In this document: in pieces, positions 57,635 to 64,000 of the stretch
How the letters are laid out: each line of letters starts with the position of its first letter
Numbering within the stretch: position 1 is the first letter of the stretch
Assembly (NCBI GenBank): GCA_963797555.1
Contig: CAWCPV010000005.1
Location: forward strand, 128,001 to 192,000
DNA length: 64,000 nt
Source: an uncultured Gammaproteobacteria bacterium
GTDB taxonomy: Bacteria > Pseudomonadota > Gammaproteobacteria > CAWCPV01
Direction of reading: 5' to 3'
The notes under the pieces: model-generated
What the model saw: only the letters and a program-made list of their open reading frames with translations
Databases searched by the model: none
What the model was told of the DNA's origin: nothing
Program-made: the position numbers and the translations under genes

Positions 57635-58738
57635 TCAAATCCGCATCGGCATGACAACATAGCGACTGGCATCATCGCCAGGCGTTTGGACCAGACAACT
57701 GCTGGCGGAATCCAGCAGCGTCAGCCTTACCTCCTCTGTACCGATTGAGCCGAGCACATCAAGGAGATAGTTGGCATTGAAGCCGATTTCCATCTCGCCC
57801 GCCTCGTAACAGACTTCCAACTCTTCTTCCGCCTCCTCCCGCTCTAGGTTGTGAGCCGATACCGTCAATCGCCCGGGCTTCAATTGGAGGCGCACCGTGC
57901 GGGACTGATCGCTGCTGAGGATAGCAACGCGAAGGAGCGCATTCCTCAGCGCCGAGCAGTTCGCCGTCAGAATCTTGTCATTGCCAAGCGGGACGACCCT
58001 CTCGTAATCGGGGAACCGCCCATCCACGAGCTTGGACGTAAATGTCAAGTGCGGCAGCGAGAACCTGATCTGATGCGTTCCCGCCCGAATCTCCACACGC
58101 GCCTCGGTGTTCTCCAGAACGCGGAGTAACTCCAACACCGCCTTACGCGGGACTATTAGCTGTAGTGGCTCGTCGAGCGTCAAGTCGACGCTCAGATCGC
58201 ACATGGCGAGACGATGCCCGTCTGTCGCAACGACCCGCAGGCGCCCAAGCGAGACCTCCATTAGCAACCCGTTCAGGTAATACCGCACATCCTGCTGGGC
58301 CATGCAGAAATATGTGCGGTCCATCAGGGAACGCAGATCCTTTTGCGCTAAAGCCACTACCGTGCCCTCGCCGGACTGCTCGCTACGGGGAAAATCTTGG
58401 ACGGGCAGGGTCGTCAGGCTGAACCGACTCCTCCCCGAACGCAGCACAGCCCTACCGGACTCTGCCGTTAACTCTACCACAGCCCCTTCGGGCAAGGCCC
58501 GAACGATCTCCAGGCACTTGCGCGCGGGTAGGGTGCATTCCCCCGCTCTGGCCTCGCTAAGCGGTATGGAGATGGCCACCCCTACTTCGAGGTCTGTGGC
58601 TTGCATCGTCAAGGAGTCAGCGGCCACTGATAGGAGGGTGTTCGCCAATATTGGAAGGGTCTGGCGACGTTCCATGATGTTGTTCACGAGCTGCAACGGC
58701 CGCAGCCACTCCTCACGCGGTATGCTTAGACTTATCAT
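57635..58738 (-). CDS. dnaN: DNA polymerase III beta clamp
   Basis: TLPILAN, DVRYYLNG, VATDGHRL, FPDY, VVMPMRI. Confidence 0.99.
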   Translation of the reverse strand: MISLSIPREEWLRPLQLVNNIMERRQTLPILANTLLSVAADSLTMQATDLEVGVAISIPLSEARAGECTLPARKCLEIVRALPEGAVVELTAESGRAVLRSGRSRFSLTTLPVQDFPRSEQSGEGTVVALAQKDLRSLMDRTYFCMAQQDVRYYLNGLLMEVSLGRLRVVATDGHRLAMCDLSVDLTLDEPLQLIVPRKAVLELLRVLENTEARVEIRAGTHQIRFSLPHLTFTSKLVDGRFPDYERVVPLGNDKILTANCSALRNALLRVAILSSDQSRTVRLQLKPGRLTVSAHNLEREEAEEELEVCYEAGEMEIGFNANYLLDVLGSIGTEEVRLTLLDSASSCLVQTPGDDASRYVVMPMRI

Positions 58739-58990
58739 TAAACTAACTTCAATATAACTTGGAATTGTTATTATAGATCCATGTTTGTCACGAGAGAACT
58801 AGGGGTTCTCTTTGCCCAACAAGTAGTTATCCTTTGAATTATCCTGTGGATAAGCTGGTATACACGGTGCCTGGCCTGTGGGTAACTATGGAACAAGGAA
58901 TAGCCCTATAACGGGCTGTTGTGGTCCTCAACAGGCTAGGCGGAGTTCCCAGACTGGATATCCCCATCAACTGCTGAGTATCTTCCACAG
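58739..58990. other. Probable oriC: DnaA boxes plus AT-rich unwinding element
   Basis: TGTGGATAA 58845-58853, TGTGGGTAA 58877-58885, further degenerate boxes, AT-rich tract 58735-58785 in high-GC DNA. Confidence 0.8.
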
Positions 58991-60301
58991 GTTGCTGAAG
59001 TCCTCCGCGACACGCGTATCACGCTCTTTTAGTTCGGTGATCTTACGGCAGGCGTGTAGCACGGTGGTGTGGTCGCGGCCTCCGAAGGCGTCCCCAATCT
59101 CGGGGAGGCTATGCTCGGTCAGTTCCTTGGCCAGTGCCATGGCCATCTGGCGGGGCCGAGCGAGTGTCCGGACTCGGCTCTTGGAGAGCAGATCGGCTAC
59201 ACGAATTTTGTAATATTCGGCCACGGTCCTCTGGATATTATCCAGGGTGACAAGCTTGTCTTGGACTGCGAGCAGATCCTTGAGAGACTCCTTGGCGAAC
59301 TCCACCGTGATAGGGTTGCCGGTAAACTGGGCGTTGGCTGCGACGCGCCGCAACGCTCCCTCCAGCTCCCGGATGTTGGAGCGAATGCGTTTGCCGATGA
59401 AGAAGGCCACTTCGCTCGGGAGCTTGACTTGAGCGAGGTTGGCCTTGCTCATAAGGATCGCCACTCGTGTCTCGAGCTCCGGAGGCTCGATGGCGACGGT
59501 CAACCCCCAGCCGAATCGCGACTTCAAGCGCTCTTCTAGACCGTGGACCTCCCGAGGATATCGGTCGCAGGTGAGGATGACCTGCTGCTGGCCTTCCACC
59601 AGGGCGTTGAAAGTGTAAAAGAATTCCTCTTGACTGCGTTCCTTCCCTGCAAAGAACTGAATGTCGTCGATGAGGAGCGCGTCTAGAGACCGGTAAAAGT
59701 GCTTAAAGTCGTTGATCGTGTTGTGCTGTAGAGCCTTGACCATGTCGGCGACGAATCGCTCTGAGTGCATGTATGCGATACGACGCGCAGCGTTCAGAAC
59801 ACGAATTTGGTTCCCCACCGCATGCATTAGATGGGTCTTGCCGAGGCCGACACCCCCATAGATCAGTAGCGGGTTGTAGGCGTCCCCGCTGTTCGCGGCC
59901 ACCTGCTGACACGCGGCATGTGCGAGCTGGTTGGATTTTCCTACCACGAACGTGTCGAACGTTAGTTGGGGATTAAGGCTACTGTGCTGTGCGAACGCTG
60001 GGGTGTTGGGCACGCGCACGGTAGCGGGTGGTGCGGTTGGGTCAGGGAAACTGCTGGACGCCCGGCTACCTACCTCCACGACGACATGGATCGTCTCGCC
60101 CCGAACGCCCGACGCGACCTCCGCTATCTGCGGAAGGAAGCGTTCGCTGACCCAGTCCACCACGAAACGGTTGGGAGCTAGCAGACGCAGTCGCGTCTCC
60201 TCCTCAACCGCCTGCAGGGGTCGGATCCAGGTATTGAACTGCTGCGGGGGCAGGTCCATCTCAAGGCGGTCGAGGCACTTCTGCCAGAGCGTCTGACGCA
60301 A
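58967..60301 (-). CDS. dnaA: Chromosomal replication initiator
   Basis: [36 protein letters not shown]. Confidence 0.99.
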
Positions 60302-60360
60302 GTTCTTAACCCTTGGCTACGGGGCGCGGGTGGTTCCAAGTGTATACTGCGGACTGGGTC

Positions 60361-60369
60361 TTATCCACA
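60361..60369 (+). promoter_or_regulatory. Perfect DnaA box in the dnaA promoter
   Basis: TTATCCACA ~60 bp upstream of dnaA. Confidence 0.85.
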
Positions 60370-60559
60370 AGCACAACGCTGTGCACGGTTCCTCTCGAAG
60401 TGCCCTGTCAGCGGTCATTCGATAATCCCCACTTCGGGTCACTGAATTTTCCCCACCCTTCCTTTTCGAGGAGGGTAGTTCATGTTGCAAGCAGTAGAGG
60501 TGGTGAAGTCAGTCACTATGCCAGCCCCGGTAGCTGGTAGAGTAGAGAGCTGGTTACTG

Positions 60560-62055
60560 ATGCCGTGGCGACCTGCTCGCGCACCGGCAAGTGCCGCATC
60601 CGCTGCATCAAGTCGCGCAGGCGGGTCAGACTGCGCTGCAGCCGAGTCTTCTCGGTCCGCAGCCCCACCTTGGAAGTGGCCCTTTTGGTTGCGCGTGCAG
60701 TAGAGGGTAAAGCCCAGGAAATAAATGGTCTCCGGGCGTCGCCTCCCTCGCTTGCTCGCATGCGTCTGGGCATAACGACCGAACTCGATGAGCTGGGTCT
60801 TGCTCGGCTCCAGACTCAGGCCGAACTTCCCCAACCGTTTGCCCAGGGCCTCCTGGACGCGCAGGGCATCCTCCCGGCATTGGAAACACAGCACGAAGTC
60901 GTCGATGTAGCGCACCAGGTAGGCTTCGCCCCGCAACCGGGACTTGACCACCCGCTCGAACCACAGGTCGAGCGCATAATGCAGGTACACGTTGCGAAGC
61001 CCCACGCTGATCGACCCCCCTTGCGGTGTCCCCTCCTCGTTCGGACGGCTTTCCCCGGCTTCCAGGATGCCCGCTTTCAGCCAACGCCGTATCAGGCTCA
61101 ACAGGCGCGGATCTCCGACTCGATGCTCGACGAAGCGGAGCAGCCATCCGTGGTCCAGACTCCCGAAGAAGTTCTTCAAATCCGCCTCCAGCACCCAGCT
61201 CACCTTGCGCCCAGCAACCACCTCTAGTAGAGGGTGGCCAGAGCGTGGTGAGGGCTCAACCGAGGTCGTCCACCGAAGGAACACGGCAGGAAATCCGCTC
61301 GTAGATGGCGGACAACACCTGGGCGGCGCTGCGCTGGAGCGCCCGGTCGGCGACACAGGGCACGCCCAGGGGGCGCTTCTCCTGCTTGGCCTCACTTGGG
61401 GATATACACCCGCCGGATGGCCGGTGCACGATACCCCTGGCGGTGCACGGCCTCGAGCATGGGCTCAATCCAGGCCTCGAAGCTCTCCTTCGCCACCGTC
61501 TGGCCATCGACGCCAGGGGCCGAGTCGCTCGGGATGTGACACAGATTCTCCCACACCCGTCCCCCCGTGATATGGCGGGCCAATGAGGTGAAGCGCAGCT
61601 TCGACTTACACCGAGCTTTCGCCGCTATTCGTTCAAGTCCCGTTGCCATGAGGGGTTGCTCTATCTCTTTGCATAGAAGACCGTCTCCTCCCACTGTGTG
61701 GAGCCCATGTTTCCCAAGAAACGACTCACTCTCCGCTGGCCGCTTCCCCCTGTGGCCGGCTCTCCCGGCCTCCGAGTACTATCGGCCAGTCTGACTTCCG
61801 CCAGACTCATCGGGCCGTCCTCGCATGGTTAGCTTGTCGGACCCTACAAGCCTCCGCTTGAACCCGACGGATCTCCCTTGTTCGCATGAAACCCTTCGAC
61901 GCCATGCCGGCGGTACAAACCCCGGAAGCACCCCAGGACACTCGCCAATGCGCGCCCTGGGATTTCGCCTTCCCCATAGAGAGACTGGGTCGGCTGCTTC
62001 GACCACGTTCGATTTCGGGGGCTATGTTCCCGTTCACTTTCGTTCCGGCCTACCG
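60560..62055 (-). mobile_element. ltrA: Group II intron fragment with frameshifted RT/maturase (ORF ~60560-61649)
   Basis: SAPGVDG, RRVYIPK, RPLGVP, LEADLKNFF, GTPQGG, RYIDD, FLGF; ~400 nt ribozyme-like leader; I found no 5' terminus or domains V/VI. Confidence 0.88.
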
Positions 62056-62240
62056 TGACTCGGGCATCACCCAAAAGTAACTGCTCCGCAGCTGCTCGAA
62101 AGTCTCGGAATGCCGCACCAATACTGGCTTTCAGCGATTCATGGCCTCGGTCAACTGCCGAATTTAACGTGAAAGAAGCCGGTTTTTGGGCGTGACGGAG
62201 CCTGGCCGATGAGGGCCATAGGAGGGAGGGGGTGAAGGGT

Positions 62241-63462
62241 TCAGGCGGCGGCTGGCAGGAAGCCGTAGCGGCTGAGGGCCTTGATCCAGCGTGGGGCGTT
62301 GCGTTTCACAAATAGGGCTTCATAGTCAGTGGCCGAATCCCGGTAGTGTTGGCCGCGCGAGAGCATGCAGAAGATGATACGCAACATCTTGTGGGCCAGA
62401 GCGATGATGGCTCGTTTGCGGCCGCGGCGCACCACCAGAGTCTGGAGCTTCGTCTGCAAGGCGCAGCGGGTACGGCTTGCGGCATGGGCGAACTCGCACA
62501 GCAGACGACGCACATAGGGGTTGCCCTTGCGGGTGCGCCCCGATTGGCGCTTGCCGGCCGACTCGTGGTTGCCGGGGCAGATACCCACCCAGGAAGCGAG
62601 CCGCTCGGCATGACCGAAGGCGCTCATGTCGCTACCGATTTCCACCAGCAGCATGGCGGCACCGATGACATTGACCCCTGGTAGGGTCTGCAACAACAGC
62701 AGGCTGTTGGCCTCCTCCTTCAGGCCTTCGAGCAAGCGAGCATCGAAGCGGGCGATGCGGGCTTCGAGCTCCTCGATGTGGCGCATCAATTCATCGAGGA
62801 CGAAGCGATGAGACTCGGTCAGGTCCCCCTGCAGGGCATCGAGCAGCTCCTCGCGGCTCGCCTTCAGCCGGCGGCTGGCCAGGGGGAGGACCTCGTGGGC
62901 AGCAGCCCCCTGGATGAGGGCTTTCAGCATGGCACGGGCCGACTGGCCGTGGATATCGCTCACCACCACCCCCAGGCGGATGCCACCATCGGTGAGCACC
63001 TTGTGCAGCCGGTTCTTCTCCGAGGCAGCCAAGCCCACGAGCTTCTGTCGCTGCCGGGCGATCAGGCGCAGCTCGCGCAGTTTGGCCTTCGGCACGAAGG
63101 AGGCGCGCAACAGAGCGGCGCGAGCCAACATGGCCAGCCACTGGGCATCGCCGATGTCGGTCTTGCGTCCCGGGACCTGCTTGACGTGGCGGGCGTTGAC
63201 CACCTTGGCTTGGATGCCGTGCGCCTTCTAGGGCTGCGTAAGGACTTTTCCAGTAAATGCCGGTGCTCTCCATGACCACCTCCTCCGGGCGAAATCCCGC
63301 GCACCACTCCGCGAACGCCCGGCGGTCTTTCTTGAAGGCACCGAATTGGCGTTGCTCGATGTAGACTTGGCCGTCGGCCTCCTCAAGGATGGCACAGGCG
63401 GTCACTTGCCCCTGATGCACATCCAGACCGATGACACGCTTGAAGATCGCTACCAGTTCCAT
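62241..63462 (-). CDS. IS110-family DEDD recombinase (frameshift ~63225)
   Basis: GLDVH, MESTGIYW, RKTDIGDA, ASWVGICPGNHESAGK, AIIALAHKM. Confidence 0.93.
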
Positions 63463-63469
63463 GTCGTCT

Positions 63470-63714
63470 CCCGTCGCAATACACTCAAGAGATGGGAGAC
63501 GGCGGGTGCCGGACCGAGTGAGCCTGAAGGCGGCAAGCCGCCGACGGCCTGTTTAACGTGCGCTCTGTAGGGAAGCAATCCGGGGTACGAGTCGGTCCGG
63601 CGGGTCACGTTAGGTTGCGGGGTCGAGCCGCCAAAAACTTGCGCGACCTCTTCCCGCCGTCTCCCACCCCACAGCTTCTTTCATCCTCTGGGGTGGCGCC
63701 AGACGCAATGATTG
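63470..63714 (-). ncRNA. IS110 bridge/seek RNA candidate
   Basis: 14-bp and 10-bp perfect stems; 8-nt matches to the target flank and to the element end, each including the TAA core. Confidence 0.8.
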
Positions 63715-63720
63715 TTAGGT

Positions 63721-64000
63721 TGAACCCCTCCGACTCCCAATACGGCCCGTTGCGACTTCGGTTGCCCTTATACGCACCGGCTGACCTTCCTCTCCAGCCA
63801 CCGCATTGGGCCTCCCGCACTTGACTCGCGTATCTTCCGTCACATGCCGCCCCTGCTACCCCGGGAGACCCCAGACCCGCTTCCGTTTGCTCCAGGACCT
63901 AAGGTGGCAGCCTTCCCCATCTGACCAAAAGGTCGGCGTCTCCAACTCGATGACGAGGCTACTTCTAGGTTCGCCCGCGCTGCGGCCTGCAACTTCGCCC
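63721..64000 (-). mobile_element. Second group II intron fragment (ribozyme 5' region), continues off the window
   Basis: Same ordered motifs as the 61780-62050 leader: GACT(T/C)CC, CATGCCG, CCCCGG, GCCTTCCCCAT..GGTCGGC, GGCTA..GTTC..CGGCCT. Confidence 0.65.

What the first reader, a model, noticed from the sequence alone, without database searches (positions are those of the whole stretch)
62157..63722. IS110 bridge/seek RNA whose guides read out its own insertion site and ends
Seen: both junctions share a TAA core. On the element strand the empty site reconstructs to CAACC-TAA-ATTCGGC and the circle junction to TTTCACGT-TAA-CAATC. The non-coding end carries CAACCTAA (63610-63617 equals flank 63715-63722) and CACGTTAA (63553-63560 equals end 62164-62171). 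It also carries GATTG (63576-63580), complementary to CAATC at the other end. The two donor matches flank a small hairpin inside a 10-bp stem (63508-63517/63592-63601), and everything sits within a 14-bp stem (63493-63506/63653-63666). Known: IS110/IS1111 recombinases use such RNAs. Inference: this is a programmable recombinase with a 3-nt core. Its right donor guide lies 5' of the left one, unlike the order I recall for IS621. The right target guide (AAGUUU loop, ~63634-63640) is only a weak wobble match.
Basis: partly seen in the sequence, partly recalled or inferred. Interest (0 to 1): 0.78.

Follow-up and report, generated by a model that had tools for sequence, protein, structure and literature searches.

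The report
IS110 insertion sequence with mirrored bridge RNA
This is a mobile DNA element of the known IS110 kind that carries its own guide RNA for choosing insertion sites, but the guides sit in the opposite order to the textbook example and read only a very short target.

Summary
Window 62167-63714 (minus strand) is an IS110-family insertion sequence bounded by TAA on both sides. Its 252-nt left end folds into a covariation-supported two-module RNA.

Supported: the left target guide and the left donor guide. Across 79 related loci plus own-genome copies, the three guide bases before UAA track the left flank (0 of 20000 permutations). The donor guide tracks the right-end sequence (0 of 20000). 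Thirteen of 13 paralogous empty sites confirm the boundaries.

Corrected:
- Only about 3 nt of the "CAACC" match is programmable.
- The crossover core is most likely TA, not TAA. One subfamily has TAA at 14 of 14 left junctions and TAC at 7 of 7 right junctions.
- The right target guide is UUUGG (63631-63636), not AAGUUU. That subfamily carries a compensatory CGUGG.
- The proposed right donor guide GAUUG is unsupported. It is invariant while the left end varies, and it is expected by chance in 17% of shuffles.

Both left guides lie 3' of their hairpins, the reverse of IS621 and like IS1111, although the RNA is upstream of the gene.

This copy's transposase is frameshifted. One intact ORF without a guide RNA exists elsewhere in the genome.

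Known kind, variant architecture, moderate interest.

The parts
62167..63714 (-). Body of the IS110-family insertion sequence (1548 bp)
   Evidence: Similarity to sister copies ends at these bases. An empty-site comparison for a sister copy fixes the same ends.
63715..63717 (-). Left junction TAA. TA is the shared crossover core. The third A is the first base of the donor's right arm.
   Evidence: TAA in 78 of 78 left junctions, though the regex allowed only TAA or TGA. Telluria subfamily logic.
63718..63722 (-). Left target flank CAACC. Only ACC (63718-63720) is at positions that covary with the guide.
62164..62166 (-). Right junction TAA
   Evidence: Across the family the right junctions read TAA 74, TAT 3, TAC 2 of 79.
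62056..62163 (-). Right target flank. It is the start of a short repeat (MITE-like, terminal inverted repeat ATTCGGCAGT) that has 3 other copies in the genome.
63463..63714 (-). Left non-coding end (252 nt) that encodes the bridge RNA
63667..63704 (-). 5' stem-loop region. Its loop carries TGAAAGAAGC (63674-63683), an inverted copy of 62170-62179.
   Evidence: MFE fold. The helix is only 69% paired in the family alignment. Inverted-repeat covariation.
63653..63666 (-). Outer stem H1, 5' arm. It pairs with 63493-63506.
   Evidence: 7 of 11 consensus pairs have compensatory changes.
63493..63506 (-). Outer stem H1, 3' arm
63605..63646 (-). Target-binding module: closing stem 63643-63646 / 63605-63608, 5' strand, hairpin 63618-63633, 3' strand.
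   Evidence: Closing-stem pairs switch UA to CG (4 sequences) and CG to UA (5 sequences).
63631..63636 (-). Right target guide UUUUGG. It pairs with top strand C-TA-A-A, using one G.T wobble.
   Evidence: Register found. The subfamily with target C-TA-C-G carries the compensatory CGUGG.
63608..63617 (-). Left target guide strand CAACC-UA-ACG. The programmable bases are 63613-63615. UA is at 63611-63612. ACG (63608-63610) equals the usual first three donor bases.
   Evidence: Covariation with the flank at -1, -2 and -3. The role of ACG is an inference.
63508..63601 (-). Donor-binding module, a multi-branch loop: closing stem, hairpin 63561-63577, single strand, hairpin 63522-63548.
63553..63560 (-). 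Left donor guide CACGU-UA-A. It is identical in sense to the right end plus core.
   Evidence: It covaries with the right end as CACGT, CACGC, CACAT and (C/A)ATGT.
63576..63580 (-). Unsupported.
63228..63462 (-). Transposase ORF, N-terminal piece (78 aa, DEDD domain start)
63226..63227 (-). Frameshift site. There is one extra A (GAAGG here, GAGG in two other copies).
62241..63203 (-). Transposase ORF, C-terminal piece (320 aa; rest of the DEDD domain plus the Transposase_20 domain with the ES-AG serine motif)
62167..62240 (-). Right non-coding end (74 nt). Its last bases, TTTCACGT, form the left donor arm. GCTTCTTTCA at 62170-62179 is the right copy of the inverted repeat.

Best explanation
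Window 62167-63714 (minus strand) is a copy of an IS110-family insertion sequence. Its 252-nt left end encodes a bridge (seek) RNA that selects both the insertion site and the element's own joined ends.

The RNA:
- It is on the transposase strand.
- A 14-bp outer stem encloses a target module and a donor module.
[quoted passage not shown] Only three bases, ACC here, are programmable.
- The 5' strand (UUUUGG, 63631-63636) pairs with the top strand C-TA-A-A.

The reaction:
- Recombination between target and circularised element crosses over in a TA dinucleotide. The following A belongs to the right arms.
- Both left guides lie 3' of their hairpins. The RNA therefore has the polarity reported for IS1111 elements, although it lies upstream of the gene as in IS110-type elements.

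This copy:
- Its RNA and both ends are intact.
- Its transposase gene carries a one-base frameshift.
- If it moves at all, it needs protein in trans. An intact 406-aa ORF with a truncated left end lies elsewhere in the genome.

Shown versus inferred:
- Shown: boundaries, RNA structure, and left-guide covariation with flank and end.
- Shown in one subfamily only: the TA core and the right target guide register.
- Inferred: that the RNA is made and bound, the handshake role of ACG, and supply of protein in trans.
For: Family membership:
- PF01548 and PF02371.
- NF033542 at 223.9 bits against a cut-off of 140.
- The IS621 recombinase is the best solved relative, and the serine motif aligns.

Boundaries:
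- Sister copies diverge exactly at the TAAs.
- 13 of 13 empty paralogous sites hold one TAA.

Chance: both 8-mers occurred together in 0 of 20000 shuffles.

Structure, 40-sequence alignment:
- 44 pairs, 96.2% of cells paired.
- 20 pairs with compensatory changes.
- Slid controls gave 37-43% paired.
- G.U pairs that are invariant or nearly so (40/40, 38/40, 37/40, 37/40) fix the strand.

Left target guide:
- 67 unique sites in 17 guide classes.
- 181 matches against 124.1 +/- 11.8 under permutation; 0 of 20000 permutations reached 181.
- The signal sits at -1 (66/67), -2 (46/67) and -3 (31/67).

Left donor guide: 36 distinct elements, 171 matches against 142.7 +/- 3.4; 0 of 20000.

TA core and right target guide:
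- In the Telluria/OM1 subfamily, 14 of 14 left junctions read ACCC-TAA.
- 7 of 7 right junctions read CACGT-TAC-G.
- The RNA has CGUGG where all others have UUUGG.

Relatives keep the gene: 64 of 75 have ORFs of at least 380 aa.
Against: - No RNA data. No RNA-holding run was listed, so expression is untested.
- No sigma-70-like promoter was found on the sense strand, either in the integrated left end or at a natural right-end/left-end junction.
- Rfam has no match for the left end at E up to 1.
- The variable 5' part of the right target guide shows no register-specific covariation with right flanks at 66 sites. The compensatory CGUGG case is a single lineage.
- No right donor guide could be identified.
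- Positions -4 and -5 of the 8-nt flank match do not covary.
- Sister copies carrying the same guide sit at CTAAC, CCACC and CTGCC, so specificity is low.
- The transposase here, and in 4 other copies, is frameshifted.
- The ACG extension does not follow the left end in two cases. L079 and L096 have left end TG with guide CG, and this copy has CA.
Confidence: 0.82

Rival explanations
1. That means a 3-nt TAA core, an 8-nt left target guide, and GAUUG (63576-63580) as the right donor guide pairing with CAATC at the left end.
For: All matches exist in this copy. With the sister copies' CGATC, GAUUG still pairs if one G.U wobble is allowed. C1, G2 and C5 of the left end are nearly invariant and could pair with G, U and G. 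IS621's right donor guide also pairs discontinuously (passages of PMC11208158).
Against: - GGAUUGC is invariant in most rows, while left-end bases 3-5 take many values without any compensating change.
- The 5-mer is expected in 17% of shuffles.
- The perfect match depends on a base found only in this copy among the four near-identical full-length copies aligned.
- U and G of GAUUG lie in a conserved hairpin stem.
- TAC or TAT right junctions occur in 5 of 79 loci, and in 7 of 7 junctions of one subfamily.
- Positions -4 and -5 do not covary.
Confidence: 0.12
2. The left-end structure is mainly a 5' leader that controls transposase translation, or a set of protein-binding DNA repeats. On this view the internal copies of the junction sequences do not act as RNA guides.
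For: - The left end is the 5' leader of the gene.
- A predicted hairpin covers the GGGAG ribosome-binding region just before the ATG.
- No promoter or transcript end was found.
- A 7-10-bp inverted repeat between left and right ends could be a protein site.
Against: - A leader or a protein site does not explain why three bases inside the element track the sequence outside it at 67 independent sites. It also does not explain why a target change from TAA-R to TAC-G is matched by UUUGG changing to CGUGG.
- The family is annotated and experimentally known to use such RNAs (PMC11208160, PMC11187229).
Confidence: 0.04
3. The element and its RNA are relics. All complete copies in this genome are dead, and their near-identity reflects segmental duplication or assembly and polishing artefacts rather than recent RNA-guided movement.
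For: - Five copies share the same extra A.
- The genome is an 84.6%-complete, 20-contig assembly.
- Many fragments and decayed copies are present.
Against: - The near-identical copies sit in unrelated flanks, each at xCC-TAA.
- One sits in a repeat whose 13 other copies are empty. That is transposition, not segmental duplication.
- Two copies lack the extra A, so it is not a uniform polishing error.
- One of those has a full 406-aa ORF.
Confidence: 0.1

Closest known systems
IS621 bridge RNA system, IS110 group (Durrant et al. 2024, PMC11208160; Hiraizumi et al. 2024, PMC11208158)
   Same: - DEDD plus serine recombinase family.
- The RNA is encoded in the long left end, upstream of the gene and on the same strand.
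- There are two modules, one for the target and one for the joined ends.
- Left guides have the sense of the top strand and include the core.
- The crossover core is a dinucleotide.
- Extra bases next to a 3'-strand guide match the partner DNA after exchange (handshake idea).
- Insertion is exact, with no duplication beyond the core.
   Different: - In IS621 each loop reads stem, left guide, stem-loop, right guide (LTG 50-58, RTG 77-80; LDG 123-130, RDG 157-165). Here the left guides follow the hairpins.
- The core is CT in IS621 and TA here.
- The IS621 left target guide is 9 nt. Here 3 programmable nt plus UA.
- The donor module here is a multi-branch loop, not a simple internal loop.
- The recombinase is 326-328 aa in IS621 and 406 aa in intact relatives here. 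Only the C-terminal domain aligns (E = 4.8e-7).
IS1111-type seekRNAs: ISEc11, ISPa11, ISKpn4 (Siddiquee et al. 2024, PMC11187229)
   Same: - The top-strand match lies 5' of the bottom-strand match.
- Donor-binding bases in a multi-loop are reported for many IS1111 bridge RNAs (PMC11208160, section 12).
- An inverted repeat is present between the two ends.
   Different: - In IS1111 elements the RNA region is downstream of the gene. Here it is upstream.
- IS1111 transposases are given as 330-350 aa. Here 406 aa.
- IS1111 inverted repeats are subterminal at both ends. Here the left copy starts 31 nt inside, in an RNA loop.
- The motif here is GICPGNHESAG, not GL-P----S(T)G.
- Clade membership was not tested by a tree.
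ISEc21 seekRNA, IS110 type (PMC11187229, section 12)
   Same: The non-coding region is upstream. The RNA is needed for circle formation and insertion. The flanking target bases around the donor matter for excision.
   Different: In ISEc21 the top-strand match is 3' of the bottom-strand match. Here it is 5'.

Membership tests
IS110 family (RNA-guided DEDD transposases, broad sense) | N-terminal DEDD/RuvC-like domain plus C-terminal Transposase_20 domain | tested here: met
   PF01548 on both ORF pieces and PF02371. NF033542 at 223.9 bits against a cut-off of 140. The gene is split by a frameshift in this copy.
IS110 family (broad sense) | Conserved serine motif of the C-terminal domain (S241 of IS621) | tested here: met
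   The HMMER alignment puts ES of GICPGNHESAGK under ES of IS621 GLTPRRYESGSS. That S241 is this serine comes from passages of PMC11208158.
IS110 family (broad sense) | Exact insertion at a short core shared by donor and target, with no further duplication | tested here: met
   13 of 13 empty paralogous sites have one TAA where the occupied site has TAA-element-TAA.
Bridge/seek RNA systems | Structured RNA in a non-coding end with segments that covary with the target flank | tested here: met
   Structure. Left target guide against flank: 0 of 20000 permutations reached the observed score.
Bridge/seek RNA systems | Segments that covary with the element's own ends (donor) | tested here: met
   Met for the left donor guide: it tracks the right end, 0 of 20000. 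The right donor side is a separate row.
Bridge/seek RNA systems | Right-side guides complementary to the top strand of target and donor | tested here: inconclusive
   Right target guide: core-proximal UUUGG, with one compensatory lineage. Right donor guide: not found.
Bridge/seek RNA systems | The RNA is transcribed and bound by the recombinase | not testable with these tools
   No RNA-holding run was listed. No sigma-70-like promoter was found.
IS110 group (IS621/ISEc21 type) | Long left end, short right end, RNA upstream of the gene | tested here: met
   Left end 252 nt, right end 74 nt.
IS110 group (IS621/ISEc21 type) | Bottom-strand (left) guide lies 5' of top-strand (right) guide in each loop | tested here: not met
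   Both left guides lie on the 3' side of their hairpins. IS621 order from PMC11208158. ISEc21 order from PMC11187229 section 12.
IS1111 group | RNA region downstream of the transposase gene | tested here: not met
   The right end is only 74 nt. The RNA lies in the left end.
IS1111 group | Subterminal inverted repeats of 7-17 bp | tested here: inconclusive
   There is a 7-10-bp inverted repeat that covaries (354 against 334.9 matches; 10 of 10000 permutations). Its left copy is 31 nt inside the element.
IS1111 group | Top-strand match 5' of bottom-strand match; donor bases in a multi-loop | tested here: met
   The definitions come from PMC11187229 section 9 and PMC11208160 section 12.
IS1111 group | Transposase clusters with IS1111 in a tree (330-350 aa) | not tested
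   No named reference sequences were at hand. Intact relatives are 406-412 aa, which is the size class given for IS110 itself in PMC11187229 section 6.

The most novel reading that the evidence does not exclude
This element represents a widespread proteobacterial lineage. Relatives were found in Aromatoleum, Accumulibacter, Acidithiobacillus, Nitrosomonas, Methylomarinum, Telluria and others.

The lineage combines the IS110-type layout with an IS1111-type RNA:
- The RNA is upstream of a roughly 406-aa transposase gene.
- The polarity is mirrored: right guide, hairpin, left guide.
- The donor module is a multi-branch loop.
- The core is TA.
- The left target guide has only three programmable bases and carries a 3' handshake-like extension.
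- A possible third contact exists. [quoted passage not shown]

It would be a missing form between the two described groups. It would break the rule, stated in the two 2024 papers and a 2026 review, that guide order follows RNA location.
Probability: 0.4. Interest if true: 0.55.

Novelty: new variant of a known kind. Interest (0 to 1): 0.42.

Why it matters
Bridge and seek RNA recombinases are being developed as genome-writing tools, and their natural diversity sets the design space.

- **Guide order can be uncoupled from RNA location.** A family with the RNA upstream but guides in the IS1111 order shows that location and order are not tied together. This bears on how the two groups arose from one ancestor.
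- **A minimal natural system.** The very short programmable left guide (3 nt plus TA) and the U-run right guide explain why this element inserts at many loosely related sites. They make it a natural example of a low-specificity bridge system.
- **A retargeting example with many sites.** The Telluria subfamily targets a REP hairpin followed by TA-CG. It shows the same scaffold retargeted on both sides of the core, and its many junctions make it a good test case.
- **A split arrangement in one genome.** Copies with an intact RNA and a broken gene coexist with one copy that has an intact gene and no RNA. This suggests a helper and passenger arrangement that could be tested.

Tried and rejected
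**Rfam.** A scan of 58000-64000 at E up to 1 found no family for the left end. It found only group II intron pieces in the flanks.

**Right target guide beyond the core.**
- A position-by-position complementarity scan at 66 right sites, against class-label permutations, gave only diffuse z-scores up to about 2 and no single register. L074 and L078 were dropped because no anchor was found.
- U-run length against purines at +1 to +3 was not significant, and +4 was borderline in the opposite direction (p = 0.046).

**Left donor guide extension against right flank.** 34 matches against 26.9 expected at the first position, with 1857 of 20000 permutations as high. Not significant.

**Right donor guide.** An unbiased scan of left-end bases 1-10 against all RNA columns, for complementarity or identity, gave scattered lineage signals. 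It also revealed a local leader hairpin. It found no guide.

**5' stem-loop.** Only 71.6% of cells paired over the three helices tested, and 69.4% in the stem-loop helix itself. I treat it as weakly supported.

**RNA runs.** No RNA holder was listed. This says nothing about expression.

**Empty site in relatives.** The 40 relatives searched are all in other families and had no usable match. The same search revealed the paralogous empty sites used instead.

**Clade placement.**
- No tree was made because no named IS1111 or IS110 reference proteins were available.
- The plasmid search gave only generic 'IS110 family transposase' names.

**Dropped rows.**
- L058, L059, L064 and L077 were dropped from the left-end alignment because the boundary guess failed.
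- L079 was dropped from the donor-guide count because the regex hit the wrong place.
- L085 and L089 were dropped from the left-flank test because their flank is the right end of another family member.

**Print check.** Searches, plus the passages read, found no description of an upstream RNA with IS1111-type order. The supplements of PMC11208160 and PMC11187229 and the database of the 2026 preprint could not be seen and may contain this family.
Full report
**What is there.** On the minus strand, window 62167-63714 is a 1548-bp element.
- It has a 252-nt non-coding left end.
- Its transposase gene runs from the ATG at 63462 to the stop at 62241-62243.
- It has a 74-nt right end.
- The two ORF pieces carry PF01548 and PF02371. 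The larger piece scores 223.9 bits (cut-off 140) on NCBIfam NF033542, 'IS110 family RNA-guided transposase'.
- The best solved relative is the IS621 recombinase. Only the C-terminal domain aligns (E = 4.8e-7), with the serine motif in register.

**Check of the observation.** I ran 20000 dinucleotide-preserving shuffles of the left end.
- The flank 8-mer CAACCTAA appeared in 18.
- The end 8-mer CACGTTAA appeared in 38.
- Both appeared together in 0.
- GATTG appeared in 3448.

**Boundaries.** The window's genome (20 contigs, 84.6% complete) holds 36 matches to the element.
- Four copies are near-identical and full-length, and their flanks are unrelated.
- Similarity ends at the two TAAs.
- This copy differs from two sister copies at a single base, 63713 (A here, G there).
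- One sister copy sits in another repeat. All 13 of 13 other copies of that repeat examined read CATCTGCC-TAA-AGCCACGG with one TAA. Insertion is therefore exact and shares at most TAA.

**Relatives.** A scan of one genome per species found 288 relatives, and the best 80 (79 loci) were kept.
- They share 72-81% amino-acid identity.
- They come from Aromatoleum, Accumulibacter, Acidithiobacillus, Nitrosomonas, Methylomarinum, Massilia/Telluria and others.
- Of 75 elements with both ends found, 64 have ORFs of at least 380 aa, mostly 406-412 aa.
- Nearly all begin TAA-CG-NNN-AT and end TTTCA-NNN-TAA.

**RNA structure.** I aligned 40 distinct left ends. RNAalifold gave 44 pairs in 7 helices.
- 96.2% of cells are paired, and 20 pairs show changes on both sides.
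- 0 of 500 shuffles reached the observed values.
- Partners slid by 1-3 columns gave only 37-43% paired.
- G.U pairs that are invariant or nearly so (40/40, 38/40, 37/40, 37/40) would be A-C mismatches on the other strand. The RNA is therefore on the transposase strand.

In window coordinates:
- Outer stem: 63653-63666 with 63493-63506.
- Target module: closing stem 63643-63646 with 63605-63608, hairpin 63618-63633.
- Donor module: closing stem 63596-63601 with 63508-63513, and two hairpins at 63561-63577 and 63522-63548. This makes it a multi-branch loop.

**Left target guide.** The strand CAACCUAAC (63609-63617) lies between the target-module hairpin and the closing stem. I compared the last five guide bases with the left flank.
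- The test used 67 unique insertion sites and 17 guide classes. Two sites whose flank is another element's right end were dropped.
- 181 bases matched, against 124.1 +/- 11.8 when guide classes were permuted. 0 of 20000 permutations reached 181.
- The signal is at -1 (66/67), -2 (46/67; 1 of 20000) and -3 (31/67; 2 of 20000).
- There is no signal at -4 or -5.
- Examples: guide AAGC with flanks ending GC in Aromatoleum; GCT with CGCT; GGT with TGGT; TTC or ATC in Acidithiobacillus.
- Sister copies with the same guide as this element sit at CTAAC, CCACC and CTGCC. The 8-nt identity here is partly luck, and the programmable part is about 3 nt.

**Left donor guide.** CACGUUAA (63553-63560) lies between the two donor-module hairpins.
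- Across 36 distinct elements its last five bases match the right end at 171 positions, against 142.7 +/- 3.4. 0 of 20000 permutations reached 171.
- The matched forms are CACGT, CACGC, CACAT and (A/C)ATGT.

**Core.**
- Right junctions read TAA in 74, TAT in 3 and TAC in 2 of 79 loci.
- I then collected all junctions of the TAC subfamily in two genomes.
- 14 of 14 left junctions read ...GCCCACCC-TAA, where the flank is a REP-like hairpin.
- 7 of 7 right junctions read CACGT-TAC-G.
- Donor (TA-A) and target (TA-C) differ at the third base, and each junction keeps its own base. The crossover is therefore confined to TA. For this element the third A is simply common to both arms.

**Right target guide.**
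- A scan of the 5' strand against right flanks gave one register in which the invariant UUUGG faces C(-1)-T-A-A-R. Pairing was 66/66, 66/66, 64/66 and 48/66 for the core and +1.
- There was no covariation further out.
- The TAC-G subfamily has CGUGG at exactly these positions. That pairs with C-TA-C-G.
- This is one lineage, but it changes both bases in the predicted register.
- For this element the guide is 63631-63636.

**Right donor guide.**
- The left end's first five bases take 12 forms: CGATC, CGGTG, CGTCC, CGCAC and others.
- GGAUUGC stays constant in nearly all elements.
- No other RNA column compensates.
- I therefore regard GAUUG as unsupported and the right donor contact as unresolved.

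**Polarity.**
- In IS621 each loop reads stem, left guide, stem-loop, right guide (passages of PMC11208158).
- ISEc21, an IS110 type, has the bottom-strand match 5' of the top-strand match. IS1111-type elements have the reverse order (PMC11187229 sections 9 and 12).
- Many IS1111 RNAs hold donor bases in a multi-loop (PMC11208160 section 12).
- Here the left (bottom-strand) guides are 3' and the donor module is a multi-loop, yet the RNA is upstream of the gene.
- The protein is 406 aa. That is the size class given for IS110 itself, not the 330-350 aa given for IS1111 (PMC11187229 section 6).
- That paper notes exceptions in RNA location, such as ISMtsp17.
- A 2026 review still ties order to family (passages and part of Table 1 of PMC13604230).
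- A 2026 preprint reports many deviating bridge RNA structures without details that I could see (passages).
- I made no tree, so the clade is open.

**Inferences.**
- The bases after UA in the left target guide (ACG, 63608-63610) equal the first three bases of nearly all left ends. In the TAC subfamily the guide's third A mismatches the target but matches the product.
- This resembles the handshake guides of IS621, on the mirrored side. It rests mostly on invariant bases. It fails to follow the left end in L079 and L096 and in this copy.
- A 7-10-bp inverted repeat links the loop of the 5' stem-loop (63674-63683) to the right end (62170-62179). It covaries: 354 matches against 334.9, and 10 of 10000 permutations were as high. 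It could be a protein site or a third RNA-DNA contact.

**State of this copy.**
- An extra A at 63226-63227 splits the gene.
- Five copies share the extra A, and two copies lack it.
- Of those two, C3:589092-590468 has a full 406-aa ORF but keeps only about the last 90 nt of the left end.
- The other has an 11-aa deletion, and its left end is interrupted.
- Supply of protein in trans is plausible but not shown.

**Limits.**
- No RNA-holding run was listed.
- No promoter was found.
- Supplements of the papers could not be read.

Noticed in passing
window 62056-62163 (minus strand); G000 C3:677483-677593, C3:814004-814114, C4:725852-725962: The right flank of the element is the start of a short repeat. 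Each of its 3 other copies begins right after xxCC-TA. In the C3 copy it ends about 185 bp later with the inverted sequence (ATTCGGCAGT ... ACTGCCGAAT) followed by TA. It looks like a small non-autonomous element with a TA duplication. Two of the other copies offer unoccupied AACC-TAA sites.
   Followed up: partly
window 61920-62020 and 63849-64000 (minus strand); ORF pieces 61392-61694: Group II intron RNA pieces (Rfam RF02005, 63.2 and 38.8 bits) lie on both sides of the element. They cover overlapping parts of the model, so they are two different intron copies or fragments. Nearby reverse-transcriptase-like ORFs are short pieces.
   Followed up: partly
G000 C14:366215-366819 and 14 other places (L110, L113-L115): The sister copy at C14:366820-368367 sits inside another repeat that has about 15 copies at 91-100% identity. 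Thirteen of these that I examined carry the same unoccupied CTGCC-TAA-AG site.
   Followed up: partly
G000 C5:20670-21142: An internally deleted derivative of about 470 bp. It joins the left end with the whole RNA region (93% identical) directly to the last 212 bp of the element. It is flanked by GAGCC-TAA and TAA-GAG. It is a possible passenger element that keeps the RNA and both ends but has no gene.
   Followed up: partly
G000 C3:303873-307870: A copy whose left end is interrupted after the donor guide by an insertion of about 2.46 kb with its own inverted ends. Its transposase ORF lacks the frameshift but has an 11-aa deletion.
   Followed up: partly
G000 C11:78750-78805: A short relic reads TTTTCACGT-TAA-CGCTCATTGCG. 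This is a right end joined to a left end through one TAA, as expected for a circle junction or a tandem pair.
   Followed up: no
L085, L089, L097, L101 (Mariprofundus and Methylomarinum contigs): Several relatives are inserted directly next to the right end of another family member, or in tandem with only a few bases between. The right end plus TAA resembles the preferred target.
   Followed up: no
L118, L120-L130 (Telluria antibiotica contig ends): This subfamily inserts after a REP-like hairpin GTGGGCAC(G/A)GGGTGCCCACCC. The short-read assembly breaks at every copy, so at least 12 left and at least 12 right junctions lie at contig ends.
   Followed up: yes
G000 C14:362002-362904: A second, different IS110-family transposase gene (338-aa open frame, 220 bits on NF033542) lies about 4 kb from a sister copy.
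   Followed up: no
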